Shown here: positions 33,540 through 55,799 of the stretch, piece by piece
Numbering within the stretch: position 1 is the first letter of the stretch
Layout of the letters: each line of letters opens with the position of its first letter
NCBI GenBank assembly: GCA_050084515.1
Contig: CM114271.1
Location: 43,214,001 to 43,278,000, forward strand
Direction of reading: 5' to 3'
Length of the DNA stretch: 64,000 bases
From: Blasia pusilla
Lineage: Eukaryota
Program-made: the position numbers and the translations under genes
The notes under the pieces: model-generated
Seen by the model: the letters and a program-made list of their open reading frames with translations, nothing else
Told to the model about the DNA's origin: nothing
Databases searched by the model: none

Positions 33540-35091
33540 GATTGTAGAGGAACATTTTGCGGGTATGGGGAGATAATAGGATACAAGTGGTACCTCATCC
33601 TTCCCACCGAGCATGTGTAGTGCAACATGCCCATGAGTAGTTGGGGCATTTTGGAGTAAAGCGTACTTACAGCTTATTCCAGGTTCAATATTGATGGCGC
33701 GGTATGCATATTGGAGTACAGCACTTTGTGGCCAGATGTATGGTATGTGACCAAGTGTGAGCATCCTTCAATGCTCCCACTCCGTAGTTACATCCTTTGC
33801 CGATTATGGGTTTAGGTTATCGGTGGACTTTAGACTTTGCGGGACCTTTGCCATTGACGGGGCGTCACCACAGGTATGTTTTGGTCATGGTGGAGCATTT
33901 CTCCAAGTGGATAGAGTTGGTGGCACTATTAGACAAGGCAAGCGAGGAAACAACATATGCGTTTCTAGATCGTGTGCTTAGTCATTTTGGTGCAGTGGCG
34001 GAGGTGTTGACTAACTAGGGTACCGAGTTTAGGGGAGAGTTTGAGGCCTTGTGTGATTAGGCGCTAGTAGATCACCGCACCACATCTAGAGATCATCTTG
34101 AGGCAGATGGTTGGCGGGGAGAGTTGTCCATACAGTGAAGAGAGGATTGCGCAAGTAGCAAGTATGGCTTGCAGCGGGGACAGTTGAGGGAGTGGGACCT
34201 ATAGTTGCCATGGTTGGCTATGGGTTATCGCTTCAGCTGGCAGGCATCCTTGGCGTCATTTTCACCGTACTTTTTGCTCTTTGGGAGAGAGCCAAATTTA
34301 TCTCCATCTATTTGAGGTGACATGGCGGAGATGTTAGATCTTGATGATCCAAATATGTGGGTATAAGCATGTTCTCACAGGGCAGAGATTTTTCATAGAG
34401 TCATGCCCATGGCCTCTGAGAACTTAGCTATTGCTCAGCATAGGGATACATTAAGGTACGCGACCATTCGTGGAGGAGGTTATCTTCCAGGGATTAGGAG
34501 GTTTCATCTTGGAGATTACGTGTATTTATTGCAGGCCGTACCCGCGACGCTAGATGTCACTGCAGGGCGCATAATCCTACATGTGCGCGAGGTGTTACCG
34601 ACCGGAGTGCTCATGTTGGAGGGACGGGATGGTATGGTTTGGAAGGATCATGTGCGCAACAGTGCACCATGTCACCTTTCAAACGTGGACGGGAGAGTGG
34701 ATCCGAGCTTAGCAATGGTATCTACACGCTGGAGGTGTATGTTGTGTGGATCTACGAGGGATGCAGCCACCATGTTGGTATGTGATGGTTGTTCTCGAGG
34801 GTGGCATATGTCATGTCTGATCCCCCCTCTTGATGTAGTTCCCACGGGACGATGGATATGTCCAAGATGTATATAGGGTAGTAGATCATGTTAGAGAGAT
34901 GTGATATCTGCTATCTGGAGTTGGGGGGATCCAACTACTAGTTTAGGGGGCGGTTGTGTATCTCGATGTATATGTGTGAGTTGATTTTTTGTACTTGTGT
35001 GGATCTACCCGTATGTTGGGGAAAATTAGTATTGTGTGGTGTGGATGTGACCAACGATATATATTGTGTAGCGATATGTATGCGCATGACA
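33540..35091 (+). mobile_element. Truncated older copy of the retroelement: integrase + intact PHD finger + A-type terminus
   Basis: PIMGLGYRWTLDFAGPLP..VEHFSKWIELVAL (33797-34018) and ORF 34403-34876 ending CMLCGS..MLVCDGCSRGWHMSCLIPPLDVVPTGRWICPRC. Then TAGGGGGCG (about 34944) and a terminus ...GTGTAGCGATATGTATGCGCATGACA at 35091. Confidence 0.88.
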
Positions 35092-35821
35092 TTTAAGAGA
35101 GGAATTTTTTTAAATTTTACTCTTAAATTAAAAAAAAATTGAAGCAAGCACAAAATCACAAGATGATAAGAAAAATAAAGTAATTTGCTCTTGCCACAAT
35201 ACAAAGAGACCGAATAAGAGAGATTTTTGTCTTAGATGCACCTTAGTTACATAATGGTTATTGAGATAACCTACATTTCTACAAGCTCCCTAAAACTTAC
35301 TTTTTAAAGGGAGTTGGATTGGGCCCTTGGAGAACTTATTCTAATTTTTCCTCTAGATTGTTTGCTAAAAGTAGAACCCTTCTACCATATTGTGTATCTA
35401 AGGTAGAGAAGATCTCCTTTTCCTAAAATATTCTATTATTCTCTTAGGGTATGAGAATCCTCTTCTAGTTGAGACTACAACTATCCTTCTAATTAAATTT
35501 TCTTTCCTTTGTAGCATAAATCAATTGAGGCTCCAATATTCTATGATGGACATTCATTTTCAAGTCTCTTAGAGACGCTTTTGTCATGGTAGATGCGACG
35601 TAGGGCAAGATAGTATTTAGGCCTTAGAGGGTTCTTGTAATTCCCTATTTTGAGAGGTAATATGTGACTTGCTCGTAGGAGATAGTGTACGAGTGTAGGT
35701 CACCCTTCCTTTATGAGGAGTGGCAACCTTGGATTAGTTGACCTTCCCATCTTTTGTGTGGAGCTACTTGAGCCTATATGGTCAAGGGTTAGTTGGTAGT
35801 TCACAGGTAGTCGGTCTTATG

Positions 35822-35949
35822 TGTCGTGCGCATACACATCGCTACACAACATACATCGCTGTCACCGAACACACACACAAACACGCATGATCCCATGCTA
35901 ACTCATGGCATCCAAACAACGAGACAAGAAGAACCAAAATATCTCCAAT
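35822..35949. repeat. Split direct repeat A, terminal copy (128 bp)
   Basis: Matches 36466-36593 with 1 mismatch seen (GAACC/GAACA). Confidence 0.95.
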
Positions 35950-36463
35950 TAAAGTAAGATCCAATCTCTCTCTCCACCATCTCACACCATAGCTCTCAAA
36001 GGTGTGCACTCTCTCTCATGTCAAACCAAACCCACTCTCCTAATGAGAGGCTTGGGTTACACTCACAAGGCAAGGTACCATAGCTCCGCCGCCTCATGCC
36101 AAGAGGTTCAACAAAGAGAGAATGAGCTCTCAAGCTCTCTCTCCTTGAGGTATACCCCTCTCCTCTCCCAAGCTCTCTCCATGGTAACCTATTCTCCCAA
36201 GTCATCTCCTTGGCTCTTGACCTGATGTCGGAGGTCAAGGGCCACTTACCAAAAATAGTAAGTCGATCATATACTCAAAATGGTACTTACCTAAAATAGC
36301 AAGTTCCTCAATATGGCTCCAAATGAGCCGAAACGAAGGGGAAACCTGCTATCTCAGGTTTCCAAGGGCCTCAACAGGTCATCCTCGACCTATTGGGCGT
36401 GTCCTCCACTACTCATGAAGGCGCTCTATTAGATCCCACCGATCTATCCTAAAAGACGTGACA
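35950..36463. repeat. Split direct repeat B, internal copy (514 bp)
   Basis: Matches 45773-46286 with about 5 transition mismatches by eye. Confidence 0.95.
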
Positions 36464-36465
36464 GT

Positions 36466-36593
36466 TGTCGTGCGCATACACATCGCTACACAACATACAT
36501 CGCTGTCACCGAACACACACACAAACACGCATGATCCCATGCTAACTCATGGCATCCAAACAACGAGACAAGAAGAACAAAAATATCTCCAAT
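36466..36593. repeat. Split direct repeat A, internal copy (128 bp)
   Basis: Separated from the end of B (..GTGACA, 36463) by GT. On the element strand it is preceded by PPT-like AGGGGGGCG (36594-36602). Confidence 0.95.
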
Positions 36594-36773
36594 CGCCCCC
36601 CTAGCTGGTGGTTAGGTCCCTCTAACTCCAGATAGCCATCTATCCCTACCTACCATGACATACATCTCTCGGACGCTAAGAGCAAGAAGGCCGGGTGCTC
36701 ATGTGGCCCCGTCATTAGTCGCCTCCTTGTCATCCATGTCATAGACACAAGTCGGAATGTAGAACTACCTTCT

Positions 36774-38040
36774 CTATGTACATCTGGGACACATCCATCG
36801 TCCCTGAGGAACCCTAGTGAGAGGTGGCGTCAAACATGCCTTATGCCATCCTCTCGAACACCCATCATAGACTAGCATCGTGGCCGCACCACGGGCAGAA
36901 CCACACAACATATAACGCAAGCCTGCAGGAACTACTACTAAGCTCGGATCTACTGTACCATCAATGTTAGGAAAGTGACATGGCGCACAATTACGCACAT
37001 GGTCCTTCCATACCATACCATCGCGTCCCTCCAGCAAGAGAACACCCGATGGCAAAATGTCACGCATTCTCAAGATAGTGCGCCCTGCAGTCACATCCAA
37101 CGTCGTTGGTGCCGTCTGCTGCAAATAGACATAATCTCCCTGATGAAACCTCCGGATAGTTGGTCGATAACCACCACCTCGAATAGTCGCATACCACACG
37201 TATCTCGATGTTGTGCAATCGCCAAGTTCTCGAACGCCATGGGCATCACTTTCCGAAATAACTCAGCCCTCTGAGAACATGCTCGCACCCATACATTTGG
37301 GTCATCAAGGTTCAGCACCTCACCAGCATCTCGACGAATGGCCGCAGGTAAATATGGCTCTCGGCCATAAAGTAGCAAGTACAGTGAAAAAGACGCTAAG
37401 GATGCCTGCCTGCTGAATCTGTATCCCATCGCCAACCATGGCAATTGGAGGTCCCAATCTCCTAGGTGACCTCTCTGCAAGCCATACTTGCGTAAACCCC
37501 TCTTCACCGTCTGCACAACTCTCTCCGCTAATCCATCCGCCTCACGATGATCTCGCAAAGTCGTGCGGTGGTCGATCAGCGCCTGATCACACAAGGCCTG
37601 GAACTCACAGCGAAACTCGGTACCGTGGTCTGTCAACACCTCAGCTGGTGCGCCATAATGACTCAGCACTCTGTCAAGGAAGGCATAAGCTACTCCCTCA
37701 CTTGCTTTGTCAGGCAAAGCAACCAACTTGATCCACTTCGAGAAGTGCTCGACCATCACCAACACATAACGACTGTGACGCTCCGTCAAGGGCAAAGGTC
37801 TTGCAAAATCCAAACTCCATCTATACCCTAAGCCCATGATCGGTAATGGATGCAACTGTGGAGTCGGAGCATTGAACGATGCTCGGACCCGATCACACAC
37901 CATGCACTGGCAACAAATTCTTCGAACGTCGGTCTGCATGCCTCGCCACCAATATCTGAATCTGGAGCAAGCTATCGTCCGCTTCACCCCAAAGTGACCC
38001 AACTCCTCGTGGGCATCTTTGCACTAGTCGTGCTCTGCAA
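36774..38040 (-). pseudogene. Integrase (HHCC + DDE core) with C-terminal PHD finger, frameshifted
   Basis: AHEELGHFGVKRT..CMVC, RWSLDF..VEHFSKW, VLTDHGTEF, GLAERVVQTVK. PHD at about 36777-36914 reads YMLCGS..MLVYDGCSRGWHKACLTPPLTRVPQGRWMCPRC. Confidence 0.93.
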
Positions 38041-38359
38041 AGGATGCGGCACTCACGCGTACTCTGCCATCCTCCCAAACCCTCAAAACATGTGTCCCCT
38101 CCCAACGGAACGTCGGCCCCCATTTGTAGGATCCGATCCGCTCTCTAGCATCCATGGTGCTCGCAAGGCTACCAGTACGAAGGTACTCTAAGACTACTCC
38201 ATCATCATGAATATCTCGGCCACTTGTCGTGTCCTCACTGGCCTCGGGATCCAAAGACTCTCCACTAGACCTCGCCATCGAAGTCTCCACACTCTGGCTC
38301 TCCATAGCCAACATGCCTAAATAGGCTGACGCGTGCCATCCAAGCACCCCAAGCACCAA

Positions 38360-39750
38360 CTCCTCATCACTCTCTCCATGCCATCGAGCTCCAATCGCAT
38401 CTCGCTGACTCGGGCATGGGTTACGACTCAACCCATCGCATCCTGGTTGAGCGTTCAGTCTATGTACCACCTGAAAATCATACTCTGCAACAACAGAGCC
38501 CATCTCTTAAGCTTCCTGTAAGCTTGTCGGACTCCATCAACCGCCGGTGGTTGATGATCGATGATGATGGTAAAGGGGTTGCCGAATAAGTAACACCTGA
38601 AATGCGCGGCGGCCCACACCACGACCAAGCACTCACCCTCATACGAGCTGTATCGCCTCTCTGGCGTTGTTCGAGCGGCTAGCGTAAGCCACCACAAACT
38701 CTCTACCCTCATCATCATGCTGGGTGAGCACCGCTCCAAGCCCCAACATGCTCCAATCTGTGTGCAACTGGAAAGGACGCCCCCTGATCGGTCTCCTCAA
38801 GATGGGTGCGGACGTCAACCTTTCCTTGAGCAACTGAAATGCTCGCTCCTGCTCATCCCCCCAGTGCCACTCGTGATCCACCTTGGTGAGCAAGGTCAGC
38901 GGCTTCGCAATCGAACTGAATCCCTTGATGTATCGCCGATAGAAGTTCGCCAATCCCATGAATGCGCGAACACGGCTCACATCTGTAGGGCGTGGAATGC
39001 GTGAGATAGCCTCTACCTTTGTCTGTTGAACACCAAGGCCCCCTGGGTATATCGTATGATCCAAGTACTCAATCTGGTCGTAGAAGAACTTGCACTTGCC
39101 TGGATGTAGCTTCAGCCCATGTAATTGCAATCGTCGAAACACCTCCCCTAGATGTTGCTCATGCTCCTCAACCGTGGCGCTAAAGACTACGATGTCATCA
39201 ATATAACACCTAGCAAAATCCAGACCAGCCAAGATCCTATCCATGATCTCTGAAACTCATCCGAGCGTTCTTTAACCCAAATGGTATAAGAACCGCCATT
39301 GGTACAAACAATCCTTCCGTGAGGATCGATGCCCCAAAATGCCGTCTTCGCTGTCCTCCAATCGATAGGCGGTGATGGTATCTAGCTCATAAATCAATGA
39401 ATCAAGACCTTTGCGTGACCAATCACATCAAAGATCTCCTCGAGGGTGGGCATGGCATACCTATCGGACTTCATCTGCGCGATTGATAGGTCGGTAATCC
39501 CCACACATCCGCCTATCCGTCCAGTTGCCATGCACATCCTTCTTGGCGGGCATGACAGTGGCACATCCATACTCCCCATGCGACATCTCCACTAGTCCTA
39601 CTTTGACCAAGTCTTGGCTCCTACTCTGAATCAGAGCCCTCTCCATATCATCTTTGTACTGCCGCCGGAAGATCGGCATATCACTCGACAACTCAATGCG
39701 GATCCCGGTCCCTTCACCGTACCCAAATCCTCCATGCTAAACGCAGCGGC
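38360..39750 (-). pseudogene. Reverse transcriptase + RNase H (Ty3/Gypsy-like), frameshifted
   Basis: RRMCGDYRPIN, DRYAMPTLEEIFD, CYIDDIVVFS, LKLHPGKCKF. RNase H motifs LHTDWSMLGLGAVLTQ, YSSYEGECL, DHQP, DGLSR. Confidence 0.95.
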
Positions 39751-40122
39751 TCCTATAACTCTTGAGGAACGATGTATCGGCGCCGCTCTCCTCTGTCAAC
39801 TTAGGGCCCATATCGGCTCCCAAGTCTCCATCGTGACTACGGTAGGACTCTCGCGCGGGTATCGGTGGTTGCTATGGTGCAACCCGTCTCGAACAACAAC
39901 ACTCAACCGCTCTCCAGAGCCAGCGCAAACTCGATCTCATCCACGTGCAGTGCCCGAAACCACGCTCGATGCTGTGGCTATCATCTCCTTGCGTACCTTC
40001 AAAACATCCCAAGAAGTCCAAGGGTGTCTCTCCCGATCTCCCCTGGTGCGTAGATCTCCTCGGGTCTCACCCCCAGCCATTGCCTCCACCGTCTCGGCAG
40101 GCATGGGGCTCACCAACGCAAC

Positions 40123-40157
<35 letters not shown>

Positions 40158-40329
40158 TCTGGGCACGGGGATTGGTCGGGACGCCATGCTTCCATACCAA
40201 GGTTAGCACGGTTGATAATATCAGCCCAAGTGTTAATTACACGACCTGCCGCAAAATCTGGAGTTCTTAGACATTTGGGACAGAGGAAACGCGCTGTGAT
40301 CTGTCGCGATCTCATACGACGCTGCTCAG

Positions 40330-41300
40330 CCACTCCCAAGCTGAGGATCCATGTCAAGCAGTTCAGGTCCATCGCCTGACCCAAGACATGGCGTCGTGAT
40401 GCCTCGACATCGATGGTACCGCTGCCGTCACTCTGTGGGAAATCCCATCGCCGCTCTCTCTCGTCGGCGTTGGGCTCCACCAACCGCTGAACCTGGTCAT
40501 CCCAAACCAAGCCAAGACCGGCCTCCTTGTATGCATAGGAAGCGGAAAACTCACAACGTGGGCAAGGTGCCCGCGCGCCTGCCTACCCTGTTGACGATCG
40601 GCGGTGGTCGATCATCGTGCCTCATCGCCTTTGTGATCGGCGACTGGATCGAGAATGGAATCCACTAACAAAGGGAGGGGCGCTCCACTCTGCGGAGATA
40701 CGCCCTCCATAACACCGCATGGGGCACCAAGTTGGTTCACCATAGACGCGGGCGATGGGCTCTAGAACCTACACTCGCCGCATCCAAGAACACTGCTGGG
40801 CCGATCCAGGCACGCACCTGATGAGCACTCGTCACGACCCGTGACCTGGAGTCTCCTAAGATCGGCACATTCTCTAGAATGTAGGCTGGAGAATGAGATG
40901 GTGCTCTGCAAGAATCGCCGTAAGACCCTCAACATCTCCCAAAACAACCTGGACCGAGTGTCAGCCAACCCGCTGCCTTGTCCAGCACTCGATTGGCCTT
41001 GACATGGCCAACCGGCAATGACCAAATCAATGGTCCCTACCCGCTCTAAGTCTTGCGCCCCCAACAACAAAATATCCCTCGGTAGGGAACTCACGGTACC
41101 CTCAGATCGCGGAGGCCTTGCACAATAAGTCGGGAAAACGTAGGCGTAATTGCGCCACATGTCGTAGTGAGAGCGCCTCGCAACATCATCACTCTCCACA
41201 TACAATCTTCTTTGTACTCGCACTCCTTCTGCAAAATAAACAACTAACCCGGTGCTAATCCCTCCAAAGAGATCTAACACTCAAATACCCTCCTCCGGGT
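40330..41300 (-). pseudogene. DNMT3-like C5 DNA cytosine methyltransferase domain within pol
   Basis: Motif I VLDLFGGISTG; motif IV IDLVIAGWPCQ (PCQ at 40999-41007); motif VI AYILENV (ENV at 40866-40874, shifted frame); motif VIII GSRAHRPRLW*TN; motifs IX/X EPNADERER..FP..SRRHVLGQAMD. Confidence 0.92.
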
Positions 41301-41714
41301 ACACCACACAATGGGTGTAGTATCCAAGGGTGTCATCGTAGCACTCCCGCTACCTCGGGCTCCTCAGACCGTCACGCTCTGGGTGCAACGCCTCGCTCCA
41401 CGCGGATGCACGTCGTGCGATCGCCAATCGTTGAAGCTCCTCGGCCGAGCCCCACGGCACCTCTCCTCCACGGAATGATGCAGCTACCATAAAACTCCTC
41501 TCCATAGAAATGTCAGGAACGGGAGTATCCTCTGCATGGACATGTCCCTCAATCAAATCACTAGGCCAAGTGATGGCACTACTAAATGCTGCTAAGGTCG
41601 CCATCTCTCCTGGCCGTTGCTCGATCACTGCACATGTGAATCGAACGGGTAATGAGCTAAGGCGCCCATCACCTGACTGCCATCCTGGTCTTTAGGATCG
41701 ACTCCTCCCGATAA

Positions 41715-42100
41715 TCAGGAAAACCCCATCGGGTATAACATTGCTCCACCAACCAAGACGTCGTAGGACTCAGCATCAGTCACTATCGCCTTAGCGCGCA
41801 CCACGGACTCATCTCTAGGATGTCCCGGGCGAATCCTCACCACGACCTCCTGTCGGATGATATACTGTGTGGTACTCGCTCCACCCAAGGATGTCTGTAT
41901 CCGAAATGGACAACACTCCACATCGGCTCTCGTCAAGCCCAATCCTCTGAATGACGCTTTCCCCAACATCAAGGGTTGCGCTCCTGAATCCAACAAGACG
42001 CGCTGCGGACTAAAAGCTCTACCTCCAGGACTCACCAACTGGAAGACCTCTCCTCGGTTATCCAGCAACACAACACCAGGAGAAGCCATGGCACGCTCTA
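41715..42100 (-). pseudogene. Retropepsin-like aspartic protease domain
   Basis: RVLLDSGAQPLMLG (DSG catalytic motif) ... YDVLVGGAML. Confidence 0.85.
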
Positions 42101-42899
42101 TCGCGGGTCTAGCGGGCATCTCCGCCATCCTAGCGCCGCGAACTGCCATGAATCTGGCGTGGGCGGCCCGAGCATCCGCTCCAGGGCAGTCCATCACCTC
42201 CTCTGCAATCACCTCTGAACGTGATGCAGGAACTCCAACTCCGCGCTCACATAGTGAAGCGGCCAGCCGAAAAGCCTCGGCGGGCGTACCTCCCAACGTC
42301 ACAACATCGAAAGCAGAGAATAAAGGAGTGCGGTACACAACGGTGGCCGCCCCCAACAACGTGCTCGACACATGCCCCTCCCGAGCATCAACAATAGGAG
42401 TCGCCTTTTCGCTTCTCCCATCGCCCTCCATGCTTGCACACCAACAACATTACCAACTCTCCAGGAACTTTGATGAGGACCCATCGATGGGGTCCTCATC
42501 GCTTCGGACAACGTGAAAGATTGAGGAAGCCTAGTCTCTCTACTGGCTTCCCCTCGCTGTGGATCCAACTCTACGGCTGCTCCACGCGTCACAACTGCGG
42601 CGGCCTCCATCTGGGCAACCCCGCACATCCATCCAGGATCCTCGGATCTCTGGCTGCTCCATATGATGTCGATGCCACGGATCCGGCATCGGGTAACCTC
42701 AATGCCATAGCAAACAATCTGCTCTTGTAGTCATTTGTCGATCGGCGACCATCCCAGCCTCACGTCCGGCATCTCCCTCGGCGCGTCTAGGTGGTGGTAC
42801 TCTACCTCCTCCACGGGCAGCTCCACCACCCTATCGGGCAACTCCAGCTCCTCGTCCCCCAACGGGACCACCGAGCACGATCTCTAGGCCCACCGGACC

Positions 42900-44250
42900 G
42901 GCTACTCGCTCGAGTGCCCTCTCGGCCCTCGGTCCAGGCGTAACTCAGGATGTAAACTAAAACACTGGCGCGTGTATGACCATACCTCGACAATAGTCAC
43001 ACCGATAATCTCCTGGTGCAAAGACCATCTCCTCCTCCATGCCGAGGCACACGTCCATGACCCCGGCGAGTGCAATCGCGATGATGGGCTCCACCACATG
43101 ACCAACAAGTAATAGTAGGCGGCTGCTGGCGAGCCGCATATGAAGGCGCAGTCTCGGGCACGGCCTCTCGGTATCCTCCCGAGCTCGTGGTGCCCGATCG
43201 ACCTATCTCGAGTCACGTTCTTTGCACAAGTGGTGCAGACAATCGTGACTGCTCTCGCCCAGAACCCATGGTGGCTACGCTCTCCTCCGCCATGTTGCGC
43301 TCAATGTTCTCGGCGGTCCTAAAAACATCTCTCAACGTAGGGGAGGTGTTCATAAGAAGCACCCCCTCCCGCACCCGTGTCCGCAGGGTCCGGTCCAGCA
43401 TCCCATACCATGACTGGATAGCCTGAGCCTCTATCACCCCCTAAGTGACGTTGATCAACCGGCGCAAGCCAGTGTAAGCCTCACGCAAACTCTCACCCGA
43501 GCGCCTCTGGAAGTCGTGGATGCTCCGCAACTTCTCCGTCCGTACCCCCTAGTAGCTCGCCTCAACTCAAAGAAAGAACTCAACCACGAGGGGTTGAACA
43601 CTGGGACGAACCCGACTGGATAGTGCAACTGCTCCCGTGCGAGTGACCCCTCCTAAAACGTCACTAGTGGAAGAGGCAGTAGCCTCTCCTGACTCCTCCT
43701 CCTCATCTGGGAACGGCTCCGTCCATGACACATAGTGTGGGTCATAGTAGAGCCTCCACGCCTCGATCTCACATGCATATCTCTGAGAGAACTCATGGTA
43801 ATCGTCCATGGGCGCCCCCTCTAAATGCTGGAACATACTCTTCCACGCTGTAAACGGGTTGAACTCTCTAGAGTTCCTGGCCTGCTGGGAGTCGCACCAA
43901 CTCCTAAACTCTGCTATAAAATCGTGCCTACTGCACCTGAAAACCTACGCGGTACTCTACCCCGGTCGTCCATCTCGTACGCCCAACTGGTAGGACCACT
44001 CACAATGTGTGGCGATGTGCTCACAAACTCCTCTACACCCTCCCCCTCATCTGACGATGACACAGAAGGAGGTCGAGGTGGTCCCTCACGTGGAGACCCT
44101 CGAAACCTCGCGCCACTCTGCGTAAAACCTCTAGAGCTACTCTCGGGTTCACCACCTCGCCTCTCAAAGTCCCGAACAGACTCCGTGATGACCCTCGTGC
44201 CCCTCTCACCCGATCACTCTGAACCTCATGAGGAATCCCTCAATCACTCA
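42900..44250 (-). pseudogene. Gag-like region with zinc-knuckle remnants
   Basis: Fragments MFQHLEGAPMDDY.. and AIQSWYGMLDRTLRTRVREG; C-terminal CWSCGGAHHRDC and CDYC..YGH knuckle-like motifs. Lies upstream of the protease. Confidence 0.7.
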
Positions 44251-45772
44251 TCCCAAACATGCGGCACTCGATCTACACTCTCTCTCCCCGAGACGTGTAA
44301 CGTGCGGCAACACGCGGCGTGGTGCGGCAAATCGACCAGGCTATCATCTCATCGATAACCTACCCTCAACTCCGGACATCCCACACAGGTCTATGTCCCC
44401 TAAACCACATACATAAATGATGCTCTCAGCATCCACACACCCAATATCCCCAAATAAATCCCCTTAATCCCTCACGTGCGAGGGTAAAGGACCAGAATGG
44501 GTAACTTGAACACATGTCGATGTCGCTCCTCAGCAACTGCAAATCTCGACCCCAACTCGATCGTGGAGATAACTCCTCCAATCAGCAAGTCATACTCCTC
44601 CCGTACTGATGGTGCTCAAAACTCCTCGATAGACAGTGCGGTCCCAGCGGAACGGTGCGGCGTTGCGCGCATTTTAAGGCGATTCTGAACGGCACGGCCC
44701 TCGATGGTGGGATGCGGCACTCGGCGGCACACCCTCCTCAATCAATAATAATCCCACACTCTGCTCCACAATGACGGTGCGGCTCCGCAATTGAGATGGT
44801 GCGGTGCGGCCACGAGCGGCACGGCGCGGCAATCGGCGGCGCGTTGCGGCTACGGGCGTCACGGCACGATACTCGATCGTCGTCGAGCGGCTACCAATCA
44901 CAACATAGCAGCATGAAATCAAAACTCAAACACCATAACCGGAGGTCATCTGCCTTCACTGGTTGATGAAGAAACTGCGATGACGGTGGCGGCCAAAACA
45001 AAGTACGTGGTGGCGACGCAAGTCAAGGAATCCACAAACGTCATGGAAGACCCTCCACTCCGTAATGGCGGCAATGGCACCCAAAGGGTGGACAATGGAC
45101 GGTGGACCCTTGACAGTGACGGTTGACCGCTGATGGTGACGGCCGACCGATGACGGTGACGGTTGACCGTTGACGGTGACTATGATGGCGACGGCCGCCG
45201 CCGGTGTGGCGGCTGATTTAGGGTTTGCACGATTTAACCCTAAAAATCGCCTAGCAATGGCAGCTTTACAAGATTGCCCATAACTTTTTGCTCGCAACTC
45301 CAAATTGTGCACTGTTTGTTGCACACCGTGCACAGCTTCACAATCTACGCTACCATCAAAAAATATTTAGAATCAAACATTTCAGTAAAAACTGACGGGG
45401 ACTGTCGTAAAGCCCAATGTCTCTTTCTCCTACACAAAATTCGGCAGCGCTCCCGCGCTGATTTCTCCCAACGAAAATGTAACATCTGTAAAAATACAAA
45501 TCAGCAAGCTACATGGTGCTCCCGAGAGCACCAGCATGGGGCAACCCGCCCCCATACTCAATCCCTATCAGAAATTGGGCAGCGCTTCCGCACGTCACTC
45601 TTCCACACGAAAAATCGGCAAATGCAAAGAGTAATGAAAGCAGCCCTTGCTCCGGTGAGCACTCCCATGAGCCGCTGAACGGGGAACACGGTCCCCAACC
45701 TGCAAAAACAGCGAGTGACCAGCGAGCTCCCCCATGAAGCTCTCTCACTCTCTCATTCTCTCACTCTCTTTG

Positions 45773-46286
45773 TAAAGTAAGATCCAATCTCTCTCTCCAC
45801 CATCTCACACCATAGCTCTCAAAGGTGTGCACTCTCTCTCATGTCAAACCAAACCCACTCTCCTAATGAGAGGCTTGGGTTACACTCACAAGGCAAGGTA
45901 CCATAGCTCCGCCGCCTCATACCAAGAGGTTCAACAAAGAGAGAATGAGCTCTCAAGCTCTCTCTCCTTGAGGTATACCCCTCTCCTCTCCCAAGCTCTC
46001 TCCATGGTAACCTATTCTCCCAAGTCATCTCCTTGGCTCTTGACCTGATGTCGGAGGTCAAGGGCCACTTACCAAAAATAGTAAGTCGATCATATACTCA
46101 AAATGGTACTTACCTAAAATAGTAAGTTCCTCAATATGGCTCCAAATGAGCCGAAACGAAGGGGAAACCTGCTATCTCAGGTTTCCAAGGGCCTCAACAG
46201 GTCACCCTCGACCTACTGGGCGTGTCCTCCACTACTCATGAAGACGCTCTATTAGATCCCACCGATCTATCCTAAAAGACGTGACA
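45773..46286. repeat. Split direct repeat B, terminal copy (514 bp; element 5' end)
   Basis: Matches 35950-36463, ends ..AAGACGTGACA and is followed by the TSD TATG. Confidence 0.95.
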
Positions 46287-46759
46287 TATGAGAGGACCAC
46301 ATATATAATGGTTATGGAGTTAGTATCTTGTGTACTCTATGTCATTGATGACCTACTAGGAGGAAGTCCATGGAGGTGCCCAAGGGGGTATACCTTATGA
46401 AGCTCATTCAGAGCTCATCTTCCTTCGATCAGACCCATATTGGGATCTGTGATACAGTGCAGAGTGCATGTATTGAGTTTGGATTTTCTCTTGAAGAATG
46501 GGCTAGGATTGATCAGAGATCACAGACATTGACAATATATTGCAAAATTTCTCCTACTATTATCATAGTGTGTATTATTGAGTGGATGTTTGGAAGAAGC
46601 ATAGCTACTTGCACATTTCACATTCCATATCAACTTTATATTGGGGTTGTCGAGTCATTCATGTGTAGATGTGTTAGGATTCATAGTTAGATGGATCTTA
46701 CACAAGTGTGTATGATAGTCAATATATATTGGCAACGATGTCTTTTTTTACGACTCTTT

Positions 46760-51543: not shown

Positions 51544-54361
51544 TCAATCGTAAGGATTGCGGCCGGAGCTGGAGGAGAATCCAACCTTGAGCGGAGAGAT
51601 GGACGAAACGCTTGCACTGGAGTATCTTCGAGCGCTTCCGTAGGACGAGTCGGGGCTTTCTCGGTCTGGTGAGTAGATGTGCGTCGAAGCACGCGGTCTC
51701 TCGGAGGATTGATAGCCGCTTGAGTGCATACTCAATTCGGCAGCGTAGTCTGGATACCCGTGCTCCACGGAGGAAAAATCTTCTCCCATGTGCTGGGAGA
51801 GAACTGCTGGAGCGCCCGGGAGGAATCCTCCGCTGGGTATGATCGTCTCTAAGGTCCTGAGAACAGTTGTCATGGTTGGCCGTCTGCCTGGCTCGTCGGC
51901 AATGCACGCGAGAGCCAGCTCCAAAAGTTCGAGAACGTCTTGAGCGGGAAGGACGTGCATGGACACCAAAGAAGGGTCAAACACCTCCACGGTCTTATTC
52001 TCAGACACCATTTCTAGCACCCAAGTGGCCAGATCCTTGTCGCTCTTGCCCTTGGGCTCCAGCCCCGTAAGCAGCTCCAGCAGAAGAACGCCGAAGCTGT
52101 AGACATCGCCTTTCTGGGACTTATTGCGGCTGCTGGCCATGAGCTCCGGTGCCAAGTAGCCTTCAGCTGTGATGTGTGTCGATGGTGTCTCGAGCAGCGT
52201 CTCCAATCCGAAATCTGCGACTCGCACCTCAAACCTATCGTCCAGCAGCACATTGGTAGCCTTGAAGTTGCCGTGCACCATGTTTATGTCGTGCAAATGA
52301 GCCAGACCCCTAGCAGCCTCCAATGCGATGTTGTGCCGTGCCGCCCAGCTCAGGTTCTCATGACGTTGCTCCAAGTCCCCTGCGCATGATCAAACCCACG
52401 TACACTCAGCCTCGCATCTTACGAATCCACTCAGATTACAGGAAAACTGACACCGGAGAGATCCTTTGAATCATGTGGATTCATTAAATATGTATGAACC
52501 TAGCTCTACTTTCCACTTGGATCCCAGAAACGGAAGTCGAACAACTGCAGAATGGTCAGCAATCAATTGGTACAGAGCTGCACGGACGTTGAAGGCGTGT
52601 TTGCAAGCTCAAAGGTAAAGTCCATGAAGTCCTATTACCGTGCATAAGAGAGTAGAGACTGCCATTGGACATGAAGTCACAAATAAGCAGCTTTTCGTTG
52701 GGCGACCAACAATAGGCCCTGATGTTCAGTAGATTCGGGTGAGTGACTTTTGCCAGCCTCCTGATCTTGTCTCCGAAGACGTGTTCGTTCTTCAGGCCAT
52801 GTTCTTCGAGCCTCTTGATGGCAAGCATGCGCTTGTCTTCCATGACTGCCATATACACGCCTCCGAATGTTCCGGTCCCGAGAACCATGGCATTCGCTTT
52901 CAGTAGCTCTTCAATCTTCAGTACGAGGGTGCGGTCGAGAATTTTCAGATCGGTCCCGAAGTCCTCGCAGCTGTCTGAAGTCTCAGACTTCTCAGCCCCC
53001 AATTCCTCGATCATCACCTCGTCGCTGTACTCTTCCGGGTCGGGCATCACTTCCACAACACACTTGAGAGCGGGTCTGAGAGATGCTGCTGCAATAAAAG
53101 TAGGTCGATTGGGATCAGGTTCCTGGCGTAATTCCTTACCATCAACCGACCGTAGAGTGGTAGATGTGGACTTATCTTCCTTGGACCATCCACCTTTCCC
53201 ACCGCCATATTTTTCGGAAGCTTTGCGTTTCTTCCACCACAACCAGAAAAGGGTGAATCCCACTGCAGACATCAGCAGCAGCGCAACGTCGCCGGCTGTT
53301 AGCGCTACGATCGTTAGATTGCTGAACCCCTTGGACTTCTTGTGTTCATAGAACCCAGACGGAGGGGGCATCTCGGACCCCAACGGTATGCCGTCGAAAG
53401 GCGGTTGTGGACCCGGACTTCCCTGATAAGGACACGTTTCGACAATGAGAAGCGGATTTCCCTGGAATGCAAGATTTCCGAACTGGCACGCTATGTCCTG
53501 GGGCACCGATCCCGTGAAGTTGTTGTTGCCAAGCTTCAAGTCCTTGAGGGAGGTCAAGTTGAAGAGTGCTGCAGGTATCTCGCCCTGAAGAGAATTTCCT
53601 GACAGGTCGAGGGAGGTTAAGTTGGGAGTGTTCCATGTCGCTGGCAACGTTCCTTGTAGAGAATTTTTGGACAGATCCGCTGTGACGAGGGCTCCGGCAT
53701 TCGCCAAGGATGATGGGATGGGACCGCTGAAATTGTTTGAACGCAAGGAGAGAAATTGCAGCGTCGGGATGTCGGCCAGGTCACCTGGAATGGAGCCCGA
53801 TAATTTATTTCCGCCAAAATCAAGAGTCACCACTTGCCTGAAGTTGGAGAACAATCCTTGCGGAATGGGACCCTCGAACGCATTATTGCCAAGGTTCAGT
53901 TCGTCTAGGAGCACCAGAGTTCCCAACCAATCGGGAAGATGTCCATTCAGCTGATTTCCGTCCAGTGCGAGTTTCTTGAGATGAACCATCACCGCGAAAT
54001 CGTCAGGAATTTCACCTGTGAGAGAATTTTCACTCAAGGTCAGTCTGCTAAGATAGGCCAGCCTTCCGAGTGCTCTTGACATATTTCCACTCAGGCTTGC
54101 CCCTGGCAGCCTCAACCATCTTACAAACCCAGTGCTCCAACATTCCACGCCCTTCCAGTTAGTGCAATGATTATTTCCATCTAGCCAACTTTGCAGTGCA
54201 GTCGAAGTCGCAGCATTTTCCGCTTTGAAATCTCGCAACGCTTGTTCCTCCAAGGAATTCGGATCTACACATGACGCTAGGAAGCTTGAATGCAGCAGGC
54301 CCAGAAAAACTACCCAAGTTCGTAGTGGTAATCCACCACTCCCGCCCGGCTTCAGTCCCAT
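51544..54361 (-). CDS. LRR receptor-like kinase with an atypical kinase domain (LRR-III-like), 2 exons
   Basis: Signal peptide, LRRNT (CTNWKGVEC), about 8 LRRs, a TM helix and kinase GTGTFG..AIKRL. Exons 54361-52639 and 52379-51544 (phase-1 GT-AG). Subdomain VIb is VHGNFKATN (no catalytic Asp), followed by DFG, GYLAPE and DVYSFG. Confidence 0.93.
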
Positions 54362-55799
54362 CAGAATCCTCGTCCTCTTCACTGTCTTCAATCTTCCTAT
54401 TCTTACCTGCTTCACTCACTAATCTACTATATGATCGCAAGGACTCCGGTGACTCACTCACTCGCTTCACTGGCAGTCTACCTCCTCCTCCTCCTCTTCC
54501 TACCGCTGCACTGGATGTACATTCCATCCACAGTCCTCCGCTGCAAAGCAAGATATCGCTTGATGGGAGATGAACATCACAGATTGTATGGTTGAATTCT
54601 TCGACTAGATGTGACAATCCTTACTTGCGCGCTGCACAGTAGACACGGTCGAACACTCAATCCCCATGTCTCTCGTGTTCACTACTCTGGAAATTGCCAT
54701 ATTGCCGGTGGGCCAGATTCGTCTCTCTCTCGTTCGCTCCTCCTCTCTCTCGCGTGCTCCGCGTTGTGCTACCGAGAGAGAGAAAGAGAGAGGGAGTCAC
54801 GTTCAAACTACGAAATTGGGGATCCAGGTGGGGTTCGCGAGAGGAAGGGGCGGCACTAGATGGATCGGGATATGGAGGATCCCACGGAACGGTGGCGAGA
54901 GGGAGGGAGGAGCCACGGACAGCTAGGCAGCCCTGGAGGACAGGAGAGAAGAGATGGAGTGCTGGCGCTCGTTGCAACATCCACAAGTTGCCAGGTCCGC
55001 CGCCGGTGCAGTTTGATCAGGATCAATACCACCCTTCATCATCAGACGCACGAGTTGCTACCTTCGGCTCCCGCCCTTCCAGCCTCTCACCAACCTGGTT
55101 TCTCCGCCTTCCGGTCTCCCCTCCTCCCTCCCCGACTCTCCGCCGGATTGGCTCCGTGGTCCCCACTCCTGTCGCTCAATCTCGACTCCCGCCATCCCCA
55201 GATTCGCCACTCCGTCCTCGCCGAAGATGCATTTCTAACACGGCGTGAACTGAGATTCCACATCCGTCCTCAGTCCGTTTGGACCCGAAAGTTGGAACGC
55301 CGCGAGCACTCGGCTTATCTTTAGCACCCTTGCAATCCAATAGCAACGTCGCCCTGCAAGTCTTCTTCCGTGGAGTTTTCTTGCCTCAGAATTTCAAAGG
55401 ATATATGCCGGTCAATTGACGACTTGGGATAAGAATTTGGTTGGATCATCATCTAACATGGTTGTTAGATTATTTTATTCAAAGAATATAAACGATTTTA
55501 TTTTATGATTTTCAAATGGCACCTATACTTTGAACCCTTAATGTAGGATGCCTGGTATGGGCATTAGGTAACTTAACGGGGCATCGAGGGTTACGAGATC
55601 CCGGAGTGTTCCCTCGCGGACCCTAACTAGTATGGTATAAATGATCGGGAATGATTTTAAACCTTCCAGAGGGATAGGGAGAAAATAATTATCAAACATT
55701 TGAAGGGTAGGTTAGAGGAAAAAAAATATGGAGGGCTCGTAAAGAATTCATGTCATTATTTCTTTGAGAGATTTGGTTATTTTCATAATTACAAATAGA

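What the first reader, a model, noticed from the sequence alone, without database searches (positions are those of the whole stretch)
40330..41300. Retroelement carries its own DNMT3-like cytosine methyltransferase between protease and RT
Seen: C5-MTase motifs in canonical order (I DLFGG, IV PCQ, VI ENV, VIII RxR, IX/X ERER..FP..RRHVLG) inside pol, between the DSG protease and RT. Known: the motif IX/X pattern resembles DNMT3, and the order is not permuted as in plant DRM. From memory, DNMT-carrying retrotransposons have been reported in dinoflagellates and a charophyte alga; this needs verifying. Inference: a protease-released MTase could methylate the element's own cDNA or insertion site, for self-silencing, camouflage or host epigenome modification. 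Its presence in a land-plant-like genome, together with PHD and split repeats, may be undescribed.
Basis: partly seen in the sequence, partly recalled or inferred. Interest (0 to 1): 0.9.

Follow-up and report, generated by a model that had tools for sequence, protein, structure and literature searches.

The report
Broken DNMT3-carrying Gypsy retrotransposon in liverwort
This is a decayed copy of a plant retrotransposon that carries its own DNMT3-type DNA cytosine methyltransferase, a kind of element published for a green alga but which also sits, apparently unremarked, in liverwort and peat-moss genomes.

Summary
A C5 cytosine methyltransferase domain (PF00145, E 3.2e-9) lies at about 40280-41280 on the minus strand, between the DSG protease and the RT. 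The host element is 10.5 kb (35822-46286) and of Ty3/Gypsy type: gag-PR-DNMT-RT-RNaseH-integrase-PHD. The motifs run I-X without permutation. The closest solved structures are DNMT3A/B/C, by sequence profile (4e-29, against DRM 7e-14) and by fold.

This copy is dead. The domain carries three in-frame stops and two frameshifts.

The kind is known: Gypsy-DNMT3 of the charophyte Klebsormidium nitens (de Mendoza 2018). That element also has DIRS-like split repeats, which I confirm here as A...B-A-B with TG..CA ends and a 4-bp target duplication.

The host genes are liverwort-like. The nearest DNMT relatives are annotated but unnamed proteins of Marchantia polymorpha, Calypogeia and Sphagnum. Ten literature searches found no paper describing these elements in land plants.

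Across relatives the catalytic residues are invariant, and dN/dS was 0.03-0.50 in the 17 pairs that could be compared. The bryophyte-like copies are mostly broken.

Verdict: new member of a known kind, moderate interest.

The parts
35822..46286 (-). Whole retroelement (10,465 bp), starting TGTCACG and ending CGACA
   Evidence: Self-BLAST repeats, boundary read-out, colinear tblastn to Marchantia gag-PR-DNMT-RT proteins
46287..46290 (-). Target-site duplication CATA, upstream copy
   Evidence: Read directly from the sequence. The same 4-bp pattern (AAGG) flanks the related element L026
35818..35821 (-). Target-site duplication CATA, downstream copy
45773..46286 (-). Repeat A1 (514 bp), 5' end of the element, begins TG
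   Evidence: 99% identical to A2; sequence
42970..43952 (-). gag-like region
   Evidence: tblastn to residues 11-344 of Marchantia P0004/P0019, 44-46% identity. No Pfam hit for the sub-ORF 43567-43944
41715..42449 (-). Aspartic protease region, LLDSGAQ at 41996-41976
   Evidence: tblastn 48% to P0004 residues 498-728; motif position. No Pfam hit on this ORF at E<=0.1. The database's precomputed annotation lists PF13650, an aspartyl protease family by my recollection, for relatives P0195, P0199, P0200 and P0202
40280..41280 (-). DNMT3-like C5 cytosine methyltransferase domain, broken: stops at 41283-41281, 40739-40737 and 40667-40665; frame changes near 40912/40898 and 40555
   Evidence: PF00145 E 3.2e-9; three-frame reading; tblastn in three frames to P0004 residues 740-1215
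40122..40293 (-). Segment of about 170 bp that many other family copies lack. It holds a 44-nt stretch (40123-40166) on which rRNA-like RNA reads land
   Evidence: Joints that skip 169-178 bp appear in DNA contigs of two runs and in RNA reads. 390 and 208 loose-ended reads lie at 40123. Sequence. No Rfam hit at E<=0.01
39053..39700 (-). Reverse transcriptase (broken), YIDD at 39205-39194
   Evidence: PF00078 E 7.3e-12 on ORF 38639-39256; 76% identity to the RT start of P0019 at 39700-39479
38482..38863 (-). RNase H (split over two ORFs)
   Evidence: PF17919 E 4.8e-20 and PF17917 E 1.7e-13
37559..38020 (-). Integrase: H2C2 zinc finger and DDE core
   Evidence: PF17921 E 1.1e-12 and PF00665 E 2.7e-12 on ORF 37091-38023
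36780..36908 (-). PHD finger at the C-terminal end of pol
   Evidence: PF00628 E 2.2e-8 on ORF 36774-37262. PF00628 is also listed for many related polyproteins
36596..36606 (-). Polypurine-tract-like AGCTAGGGGGG, 2 nt upstream of B1
   Evidence: Read. It is the only match in the window, although a match at up to 1 mismatch is expected by chance in 59 of 100 shuffles. The same motif sits in the same place in L026 and L023, and also occurs in L011 and L012
36466..36593 (-). Repeat B1 (128 bp), ends CGACA
   Evidence: 99% identical to B2
36464..36465 (-). Dinucleotide AC between B1 and A2, giving GACA-AC-TGTC
   Evidence: The equivalents are GACA-GC-TGTC in L026 and GACA-GT-TGTC in L023
35950..36463 (-). 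Repeat A2 (514 bp)
35822..35949 (-). Repeat B2 (128 bp), 3' end of the element, ends CA

Best explanation
The feature is the methyltransferase domain of a dead copy of a Ty3/Gypsy-type retrotransposon of the 'Gypsy-DNMT3' kind, lying in a liverwort-like land-plant genome.

Shown:
- The element is gag-PR-DNMT-RT-RNaseH-DDE integrase-PHD.
- It is bounded by split direct repeats (A ... B-NN-A-B), has TG..CA ends and a 4-bp target duplication.
- Its DNMT is of DNMT3 type.
- It belongs to a clade of streptophyte elements with the order PR-DNMT-RT. Named members of that architecture come from Mesostigma, Closterium, Marchantia, Calypogeia and Sphagnum.
- The family keeps its catalytic residues, and its intact members evolve under purifying selection.
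- Sister copies in the same organism are transcribed.

Inferred, for intact family members:
- The DNMT is made as part of Gag-Pol and travels with RT and integrase.
- It methylates cytosines of the element's own new cDNA or of the fresh insertion. This would set the copy's epigenetic state, either as camouflage as 'self' methylated DNA or as self-limitation.
- The PHD finger steers integration by reading histone tails.
- The repeat anatomy suggests that the integrase opens a junction-bearing (circular or concatemeric) cDNA at an internal GACA-NN-TGTC site.

This particular copy does none of this. Its domain has three stops and two frameshifts.
For: Domain calls: PF00145, RVT_1, RNase H, Integrase_H2C2, rve and PHD on successive minus-strand ORFs.

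Colinearity: the window aligns in order with Marchantia polymorpha proteins Mp_4g09160 and Mp_6g11220, which read gag-PR-DNMT-(RT) in one frame.

DNMT3 type:
- P0004 against PDB: the 25 best of 27 matches are DNMT3A/B/C, best 1.7e-8. HaeIII scores 1e-3 and a DRM 2.6e-3.
- The family profile A1: DNMT3A 4.2e-29, DNMT3C 8.4e-27, DNMT3B 1.2e-26, DRM 7.3e-14, HhaI 5.6e-9, DNMT2 1.3e-5. No DNMT1 is listed.
- AF2 model: pLDDT 90.8. Every Foldseek row shown, down to rank 50, is DNMT3A/B/C, best 5.2e-19.

Conservation:
- In 25 diverged domains the PCQ Cys and Gln, the ENV Glu and the ERE glutamates are invariant.
- 41 of 80 metagenome loci have an uninterrupted domain.
- dN/dS is 0.03-0.50 in all 17 pairs with dS 0.03-1.5, out of 820 pairs computed.

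Family breadth: 78 polyproteins at E<=1e-3. 379 of 452 metagenome candidates were confirmed.

Tree: the window groups with Marchantia and Calypogeia rows in a 13-row clade (SH-aLRT 99).

Repeats and TSD: repeated in L026. The junction is also present in the intact element L023.

Host: LRR-RLK 55% identical to Marchantia; F-box/Kelch and LRRNT_2 domains.

Expression: RNA reads of two 2026 runs of the same organism label lie along the element. Nearly all have the first mate on +, which means sense RNA if the library is of the usual stranded type. They carry letters of other copies.

Published precedent: PMC5890265, sections 9-11.
Against: - This copy is broken, so nothing here shows an active enzyme.
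- In the bryophyte-like metagenome group only 4 of 31 loci have an uninterrupted DNMT. The ten closest pairs have dN/dS 0.62-1.01, which looks like neutral decay.
- Marchantia P0019 lacks the PCQ stretch and gets no Pfam hit at E<=0.01.
- Activity of any Gypsy-DNMT3 enzyme is unproven. The K. nitens domain gave no methylation in yeast, which the authors called inconclusive.
- CpG is not depleted in the element (o/e 0.89, against 0.66-0.84 in the flanks). There is therefore no deamination footprint of heavy CG self-methylation.
- Split repeats were not seen in L017. L011 and L012 end with a single B.
- No Klebsormidium sequence was available, so kinship with the published element rests on architecture and on the paper's description.
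- The tree is a quick search with SH-aLRT support only, and it has no host DNMT3 outgroup.
Confidence: 0.8

Rival explanations
1. The DNMT domain acts in trans on host chromatin rather than on the element's own cDNA. It might methylate the insertion neighbourhood or host loci. That would manipulate the host epigenome, or it could be a by-product that the host has to tolerate.
For: A DNMT3-type enzyme has no built-in restriction to cDNA. The PHD finger at the end of pol would bring the polyprotein to chromatin. De Mendoza 2018 discusses effects of retrotransposon DNMTs on the host methylome (section 11).
Against: Nothing in the sequence tells cis from trans. By the paper's own data the K. nitens methylome is plant-like despite these elements (section 9). 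The copies seen in bryophyte-like DNA are mostly dead.
Confidence: 0.2
2. The domain is kept for a role other than DNA methylation. It might methylate RNA, or it might bind DNA or host DNMT3 partners without catalysis.
For: The K. nitens domain gave no DNA methylation in yeast. The paper raises RNA methylation for the LINE-borne DNMTs.
Against: The catalytic Cys-Gln of motif IV and the ENV Glu are invariant across 25 domains that share only 33-76% identity with the first. That argues for catalysis. The fold and profile are closest to DNA-acting DNMT3, not to DNMT2.
Confidence: 0.12
3. The methyltransferase is not part of the element. It would be a fragment of a host DNMT3 gene, or of another element, nested into this one copy.
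For: This copy has other foreign material: a segment of about 170 bp just 3' of motif X that many sister copies lack. The window holds several nested or rearranged fragments of related elements.
Against: The same PR-DNMT-RT order occurs in single reading frames in Marchantia, Calypogeia, Sphagnum, Closterium and Mesostigma proteins, and in many long metagenome ORFs. No PWWP or ADD domain of host DNMT3 was found.
Confidence: 0.02
4. The A...B-A-B arrangement is not a replication signature. It would be a local rearrangement of an ordinary LTR element, for example by unequal recombination or tandem LTR formation.
For: L017 does not show the pattern. L011 and L012 carry a single B after the polypurine-like motif. 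Metagenome contigs often end in repeats, so few loci could be judged.
Against: The same arrangement recurs in L026 with different repeat sequences: the same terminal TGTCA..CGACA, a 2-nt spacer, a polypurine-like motif in front of B1 and a 4-bp duplication outside A1 and B2. The junction is also in the intact element L023. The Fig. 4c legend of PMC5890265 says the K. nitens element has the repeat structure of a DIRS.
Confidence: 0.15

Closest known systems
KnitGypsy-Dnmt3 of Klebsormidium nitens (de Mendoza et al. 2018, Nat Commun 9:1341, PMC5890265)
   Same: Both are LTR/Gypsy-type elements with a non-permuted DNMT3-type domain inside the Pol polyprotein. Both have DIRS-like repeats but Gypsy domains, and both are streptophyte elements. 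The paper reports conserved catalytic residues and Ka/Ks < 0.2. Here the catalytic residues are invariant, and dN/dS is 0.03-0.50 in intact relatives.
   Different: The host here is a liverwort-like land plant, not a charophyte alga, and this copy is broken. I could not compare sequences, and I could not see the figure that shows where the DNMT sits in the K. nitens pol. The paper's text does not mention a PHD finger (0 occurrences).
Host DNMT3A/3B/3C de novo methyltransferases
   Same: They are the best sequence and fold matches. The motif order is colinear, and motifs VIII (AHRxR..W.N) and IX/X are similar (alignment).
   Different: Identity is only 20-24% in the Foldseek alignments. Motif IV is PCQ rather than the PCN seen in the DNMT3A alignment. 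There are no PWWP or ADD domains. The domain is embedded between protease and RT of a polyprotein.
Plant DRM (domains rearranged methyltransferases)
   Same: Both are related to DNMT3. DRM is the second-best group in the profile search (7e-14).
   Different: DRM chains match only profile positions 83-212, at chain positions 228-351. That fits their permuted order. The element's domain is colinear with DNMT3A.
SymbioDIRS-Dnmt3 and other DNMT-bearing DIRS or Copia elements
   Same: Each is a retrotransposon pol carrying a DNMT3-type domain. Relatives with DNMT plus Dam (P0067, P0079, P0106) and with a Copia RT (P0168) turned up in my searches.
   Different: DIRS elements use a tyrosine recombinase, by established knowledge of that order. 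This element has a DDE integrase and a 4-bp target duplication.
Chromoviruses (Ty3/Gypsy with a chromodomain after the integrase)
   Same: Both have a chromatin-reader module at the C-terminal end of the integrase, presumably for targeting.
   Different: No chromodomain hit was found.
PAT/Ngaro-type split direct repeats of DIRS-order elements
   Same: The layout is A1-internal-B1-A2-B2. I recall this from the DIRS literature. The legend of Fig. 4c in PMC5890265 draws the same comparison.
   Different: Here the outer ends are TG..CA with a 4-bp duplication, and the inner B-A junction is a near-palindrome, GACA-NN-TGTC. This is the signature of a DDE integrase, not of a recombinase.

Membership tests
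Gypsy-DNMT3 retrotransposons (KnitGypsy-Dnmt3 kind) | C5-MTase of DNMT3 type encoded inside pol | tested here: met
   PF00145 E 3.2e-9. It lies between PR and RT. DNMT3A/B/C are the best matches in PDB.
Gypsy-DNMT3 retrotransposons (KnitGypsy-Dnmt3 kind) | Ty3/Gypsy domain set (PR, RT, RNase H, DDE integrase) | tested here: met
   RVT_1, RT_RNaseH, Integrase_H2C2 and rve hits. The protease is identified only by its DSG motif and by homology.
Gypsy-DNMT3 retrotransposons (KnitGypsy-Dnmt3 kind) | Terminal repeats arranged as in DIRS elements (split direct repeats) | tested here: met
   A1 ... B1-AC-A2-B2. The same arrangement is in L026.
Gypsy-DNMT3 retrotransposons (KnitGypsy-Dnmt3 kind) | Sequence kinship with the K. 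nitens elements | not testable with these tools
   No protein named Klebsormidium appeared. The paper's supplements and figures were not available.
Gypsy-DNMT3 retrotransposons (KnitGypsy-Dnmt3 kind) | DNMT domain intact and under purifying selection | tested here: inconclusive
   This copy has 3 stops and 2 frameshifts. Intact relatives give dN/dS 0.03-0.50. In the bryophyte-like group 4 of 31 are uninterrupted, with median dN/dS 0.51.
DNMT3 family of C5 cytosine methyltransferases | Motifs I, IV, VI, VIII, IX, X in unpermuted order | tested here: met
   Motif coordinates descend from 41277 to 40367 on the minus strand. The alignment to DNMT3A is colinear.
DNMT3 family of C5 cytosine methyltransferases | Closest relatives among solved structures are DNMT3 enzymes | tested here: met
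   Profile search: DNMT3A 4.2e-29, against DRM 7.3e-14 and HhaI 5.6e-9. All Foldseek rows shown are DNMT3A/B/C.
DNMT3 family of C5 cytosine methyltransferases | Host-type regulatory domains (PWWP, ADD) in front of the catalytic domain | tested here: not met
   No such Pfam hits on the window ORFs or on relative P0210. The domain is flanked by protease and RT instead.
DNMT3 family of C5 cytosine methyltransferases | De novo DNA cytosine methylation activity | not testable with these tools
   The published yeast test of the K. nitens domain was negative and was called inconclusive (PMC5890265 section 10).
Plant DRM | Circularly permuted motif order (VI-X before I-V) | tested here: not met
   The order here is I to X. 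DRM chains match only part of the profile, at shifted positions.
DIRS-order (tyrosine recombinase) retrotransposons | Tyrosine recombinase instead of a DDE integrase, and no target duplication | tested here: not met
   rve and Integrase_H2C2 are present. A 4-bp duplication is seen here (CATA) and in L026 (AAGG).
Chromoviruses | Chromodomain at the integrase C-terminus | tested here: not met
   A PHD finger (PF00628, E 2.2e-8) is found there instead, and there is no chromodomain hit.

The most novel reading that the evidence does not exclude
Gypsy-DNMT3 elements would not be a Klebsormidium peculiarity. They would be an old green-lineage family that entered land plants and persists in liverworts and peat mosses.

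The family would have two fixed pol layouts that track the DNMT tree. PR-DNMT-RT occurs in the named streptophytes, and RT-RNaseH-DNMT-IN-PHD in the named chlorophytes.

The elements would replicate in a way not described for DDE-integrase elements. The cDNA would carry an internal LTR-LTR-like junction (GACA-NN-TGTC, preceded by the polypurine tract and B). The integrase would open a second such junction of a circular or concatemeric intermediate. This would leave A...B-A-B with TG..CA ends and a 4-bp duplication.

The element-borne DNMT3 would then act on that episomal intermediate.
Probability: 0.3. Interest if true: 0.7.

Novelty: new member of a known kind. Interest (0 to 1): 0.5.

Why it matters
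A transposon that carries the enzyme normally used to silence transposons is a standing puzzle. The only published Gypsy case is in an alga, and there the enzyme could not be shown to work.

Relatives in Marchantia polymorpha, a transformable model plant with mapped methylomes, and in Sphagnum and Closterium would make several questions testable in a tractable land-plant system. Does the enzyme methylate the element's own cDNA? In which sequence context? What is the effect on silencing?

The repeat anatomy is also of interest: split repeats combined with an integrase-type target duplication. It bears on how LTR-type and DIRS-type replication strategies relate.

The window itself adds only a dead copy. 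The value lies in the family it points to.

Tried and rejected
- Whole-genome search of the window's own assembly: no genome is held.
- Rfam scan of 35700-46400 at E<=0.01: no match. The rRNA-like 44-nt stretch is therefore supported only by the loose ends of RNA reads.
- Pfam on the protease ORF, the RT-start ORF and a gag ORF: no hits.
- One Pfam call failed because the second DNMT-like fragment (5859-6565) has 16 stops. I dropped that fragment and repeated the call with the other ORFs.
- The look-up of sequencing runs listed no RNA holder for this exact sequence.
- I looked for a Klebsormidium relative by name in four protein look-ups and found none.
- A literature search with min_terms 2 was too loose and gave nothing useful.
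- A search for 'split direct repeats' with Gypsy and methyltransferase returned only DIRS papers.
- Gene identifiers of five Marchantia homologues occur in no searchable main text.
- CpG depletion as a footprint of self-methylation: not seen.
- I considered using dN/dS between the window copy and its relatives. I rejected it because protein identity of about 50% means synonymous sites are saturated.
- I considered a tRNA-type primer binding site after A1 and saw none by eye. I did not pursue it.
- No complex prediction was run, because no binding claim is made.
Full report
**1. What is there**

The window holds a 10,465-bp retroelement on the minus strand, at 35822-46286. ORFs read from stop to stop and Pfam scans give the following, in element order:
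- a gag-like region;
- a protease region (LLDSGAQ at 41996-41976);
- a C5 cytosine methyltransferase (PF00145, E 3.2e-9, 37.1 bits against a cut-off of 22, on ORF 40762-41280);
- reverse transcriptase (PF00078, 7.3e-12);
- RNase H (PF17919 4.8e-20; PF17917 1.7e-13);
- integrase zinc finger and DDE core (PF17921 1.1e-12; PF00665 2.7e-12);
- a PHD finger (PF00628, 2.2e-8).

The protease ORF, the first RT ORF and one gag ORF gave no Pfam hit. They are identified by homology to Marchantia proteins.

**2. The observation**

- I, LDLFGG, 41277-41260;
- IV, GWPCQG, 41013-40996;
- VI, ILENVP, 40880-40863;
- VIII, RAHRPRLW*TN;
- IX, EPNADERER, 40477-40451;
- X, RRHVLGQAMD, 40396-40367.

The domain is not one open frame. 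Three reading frames are needed, with frame changes near 40912/40898 and near 40555. There are in-frame stops at 41283-41281, 40739-40737 and 40667-40665. Other parts of pol also change frame. This copy therefore cannot make the enzyme.

The two A repeats are 99% identical over 514 bp, so the insertion is not very old. Either it decayed quickly or it was copied from an already defective template. I could not exclude assembly indels at the two frameshift sites (see section 9).

**3. Is it DNMT3-like?**

Yes, on three independent lines of evidence.

Sequence, single protein. A full Marchantia relative (P0004) searched against all PDB chains gives 27 matches at E<=0.01. The best 25 are DNMT3A, 3B or 3C (best 1.7e-8). 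They are followed by M.HaeIII (1e-3) and a plant DRM (2.6e-3). The alignment to DNMT3A is colinear from motif I to motif X.

Sequence, family profile. A profile of 25 diverged family domains (A1) sharpens this result:

| PDB group | E-value |
|---|---|
| DNMT3A | 4.2e-29 |
| DNMT3C | 8.4e-27 |
| DNMT3B | 1.2e-26 |
| DRM | 7.3e-14 to 8e-11, over part of the profile only |
| M.HhaI | 5.6e-9 |
| DNMT2 | 1.3e-5 |
| DNMT1 | not among the 54 matches |

Fold. An AlphaFold2 model of family member P0007 has mean pLDDT 90.8. Every Foldseek row shown, down to rank 50, is a DNMT3A/B/C chain, with best E 5.2e-19 and target-normalised TM 0.82.

The domain differs from host DNMT3 in two ways. It lacks PWWP and ADD domains. 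It also has PCQ in motif IV, where the DNMT3A alignment shows PCN.

**4. Relatives and host**

The N-terminal ORF finds 851 proteins at E<=1e-3 and 69 at E<=1e-10 in 1.84 billion representatives.

Its nearest named relatives are hypothetical proteins of three bryophytes, at 52-57% identity to the query ORF:
- Marchantia polymorpha (for example Mp_4g09160, 1278 aa);
- Calypogeia fissa;
- Sphagnum troendelagicum.

The Marchantia proteins read gag(CCHC)-PR-DNMT, and in Mp_6g11220 the reading continues into RT, in one frame.

A second search with the Marchantia DNMT region found 78 polyproteins. These include proteins of Sphagnum fallax and Haematococcus lacustris, and many metagenome proteins whose precomputed Pfam sets combine PF00145 with RVT_1, RNase H, integrase and PHD. 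Cluster look-ups add Mesostigma viride, three Closterium strains and Hariotina reticulata. No protein named Klebsormidium appeared.

The host of the window is a land plant close to, but not the same as, Marchantia polymorpha:
- An LRR receptor kinase ORF (52556-54415, minus) has a Marchantia protein as by far its best hit, at 55% identity and 95% coverage. All other listed hits are at 41% identity or below.
- Pfam finds LRRNT_2, LRR and kinase domains there. It also finds an F-box/Kelch ORF at 17257-18537.

**5. Selection**

Across the 25 domains of A1 these residues are invariant: Cys and Gln of motif IV, Glu of ENV, the two Glu of motif IX, and a Pro-Thr pair.

In metagenome contigs 379 of 452 candidate stretches encode a relative, and 80 loci were kept. 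Of these, 41 have an uninterrupted domain. Many sit in ORFs of 1,700-3,600 codons.

Nei-Gojobori dN/dS could be computed with dS between 0.03 and 1.5 for 17 of 820 pairs. All 17 give 0.03-0.50. The six pairs with dS below 0.3 give 0.03-0.14.

The group closest to the window behaves differently. Among L001-L031 only 4 loci have an uninterrupted domain. The ten closest pairs give 0.62-1.01. The median over 394 usable pairs of 465 is 0.51.

In short, the family as a whole keeps a working enzyme. The bryophyte-like copies sampled here are mostly relics.

**6. Two layouts**

I mapped six domain seeds on the 98 relatives of 900 aa or more in which a seed was found.
- In one set the DNMT follows the protease and precedes RT: PR-MT 29, PR-MT-RT-RH-IN 3, PR-MT-RT-RH 2, MT-RT-RH-IN 2, and single cases.
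- In the other set it lies between RNase H and integrase: RT-RH-MT-IN-PHD 23, MT-IN-PHD 10, RT-RH-MT-IN 7, RT-RH-MT 5, RH-MT-IN-PHD 5.

Pfam on P0210 confirms the second order.

A tree of 110 DNMT domains gave these results. It was a quick IQ-TREE search with SH-aLRT support only and no host outgroup. Eighteen near-duplicates were dropped at 85% identity.
- All 49 rows of the second layout, plus 13 fragments, fall on one side of a branch with support 99.
- The window falls in a 13-row clade (support 99) with Marchantia and Calypogeia.

The named members of the first layout are streptophytes, and those of the second are chlorophytes. There are few of them. I could not see the published figure, so I do not know which layout the K. 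nitens element has.

Eight relatives showed the DNMT seed alone. Of the five of these that I scanned with Pfam, three carry DNMT plus a Dam-type adenine methylase, one carries a Copia-type RT, and one is a bacterial-type multi-methylase. A shorter hit, P0095, is also bacterial-type.

**7. Repeats and ends**

In element orientation the repeats are as follows:
- A1 (46286-45773);
- the internal region;
- B1 (36593-36466);
- the dinucleotide AC;
- A2 (36463-35950);
- B2 (35949-35822).

A begins TGTCACG and B ends CGACA. The four bases CATA flank the element on both sides. A purine run (AGCTAGGGGGGCG) ends directly in front of B1.

The metagenome element L026 has different repeat sequences but the same plan:
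- A1;
- the same purine motif directly before B1;
- GACA-GC-TGTC at the B1-A2 junction;
- B2 ending CGACA;
- a 4-bp duplication, AAGG.

The intact element L023 shows the motif, a B of about 108 nt and GACA-GT-TGTC before the contig ends.

Against generality:
- L017 shows no B-A-B.
- L011 and L012 have the motif and one B, followed by unrelated sequence. Recombination between B1 and B2 would produce this form, but that is my inference.
- L004 and L040 end inside A2 and cannot be judged.

The legend of Fig. [quoted passage not shown]

My reading is inferred. The unit B-NN-A behaves as the replicative LTR, because the polypurine tract abuts B. The integrase recognises the TGTC/GACA ends, which lie at an internal junction. 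The integrated form then arises when one such junction of a circular or concatemeric cDNA is opened. That leaves the other junction inside the element and a 4-bp duplication outside.

**8. Mechanism**

Shown: the domain is part of pol, and the family conserves its catalytic residues.

Inferred:
- it is translated in Gag-Pol;
- it is freed, or not, by the protease;
- it methylates the new cDNA or the fresh insertion.

De Mendoza et al. propose methylation of cDNA upon reverse transcription. The purposes they suggest are avoidance of recognition as foreign DNA, protection from editing, or self-limitation (section 11).

They showed CG methylation in yeast only for the dinoflagellate DIRS-borne domains. 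The K. nitens Gypsy domain gave none, and they call this inconclusive because human DNMT3B also failed in that assay (section 10).

In the window the element's CpG observed/expected ratio is 0.89, higher than in the flanks (0.66 and 0.84). There is therefore no deamination footprint.

**9. Reads**

One search found DNA runs of one coded organism that hold up to 55% of the sampled words of the internal region. I laid two DNA contig sets and two RNA runs of 2026 on 36600-45700.
- Very many short DNA pieces at 95-99% identity were laid. This suggests a multi-copy family, although the tool warns that depth is not a copy number.
- RNA reads cover 29 of 30 bins at low depth. In nearly all bins the first mate lies on the + strand. 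In the usual stranded libraries that means RNA of the minus strand, which is the element's sense strand.
- At many places all RNA reads carry a letter other than this copy's. At 36711, for example, 17 of 17 and 50 of 50 plus-oriented reads do so. The transcripts therefore come from sister copies.
- Single-base insertions relative to this copy were supported by most contig depth in run X2 at 38137 and 42892. The rows displayed included none at the DNMT breaks, but 46 rows were not displayed.

**10. Literature**

I read the abstract and sections 9, 10 and 11 of PMC5890265, and passages found by term. Its main text has no occurrence of Marchantia or Physcomitrella.

A 2026 preprint (10.64898/2026.05.21.726589, passages) still cites 'streptophytes (Gypsy-DNMT3)'. 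It has no occurrence of Marchantia, bryophyte or land plant.

No searchable paper combines a citation of the 2018 article with Marchantia other than for 4mC. None uses the element's name or synonyms other than those two papers. None mentions five Marchantia gene identifiers.

Subscription journals, figures and supplements were not visible. A mention there, for example in the 2018 supplementary data, cannot be excluded.

**11. Verdict**

The finding is real and was correctly recognised. The kind of element is published. This copy is a broken member in a new host group.

The useful additions are these:
- the presence of the family in land plants;
- its wide spread in green lineages, with two pol layouts;
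- the integrase-type signature around the split repeats.

Noticed in passing
window 40122-40293 (44-nt core at 40123-40166): This copy has a segment of about 170 bp, just 3' of methyltransferase motif X, that many sister copies skip. Inside it, 44 nt are matched by hundreds of RNA reads whose flanks read like large-subunit (plastid-type, by my recollection) rRNA. The stretch is antisense to the element. This may be a template switch onto rRNA during reverse transcription.
   Followed up: partly
window 5859-6565 (+), 3036-3284 (-), 6947-7872 (-): There is a second, much older DNMT-like fragment, 30-40% identical to the Marchantia domain, with 16 stops in the frame tried. Gag-like and integrase/PHD-like pieces lie next to it on the other strand. 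Together they look like remains of another, rearranged family member.
   Followed up: partly
window 33555-34876 (+): A partial sister copy (integrase end and PHD finger, 74% nucleotide identity) lies tail to tail with the main element. Its 169-codon PHD-bearing ORF is open (PF00628, E 6.4e-12).
   Followed up: partly
window 51544-54415 (-) and 17257-18537 (-): Two host genes: an LRR receptor-like kinase (LRRNT_2, LRR and kinase domains; best hit Marchantia polymorpha at 55% identity) and a 426-codon F-box/Kelch ORF.
   Followed up: partly
window 63170-63760 (+): An ORF with a reverse transcriptase hit (PF00078, E 5.6e-9), belonging to another retroelement near the window's end.
   Followed up: no
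proteins P0067, P0079, P0106, P0168 (relatives): Distant relatives of the DNMT domain occur together with a Dam-type adenine methylase in long proteins, and once with a Copia-type RT. DNMT3-type domains therefore sit in several retroelement backbones.
   Followed up: partly
loci L011 (about 6930-7060) and L012 (about 11843-11970): Two related elements end with the polypurine-like motif and a single B repeat, followed by unrelated sequence. The form is A-internal-B, without the A2-B2 tail.
   Followed up: partly
protein P0019 (Marchantia Mp_6g11220): This annotated Marchantia homologue lacks the PCQ stretch of motif IV and gets no Pfam hit at E<=0.01. At least some Marchantia copies are therefore defective too.
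   Followed up: no
loci L043 and L067: Related metagenome contigs show long tandem repeats. L043 has 3.5 kb repeated at a 6.6-kb period. L067 has an 824-bp unit twice in a row in front of a 3,329-codon ORF. These may be tandem elements or assembly effects.
   Followed up: no
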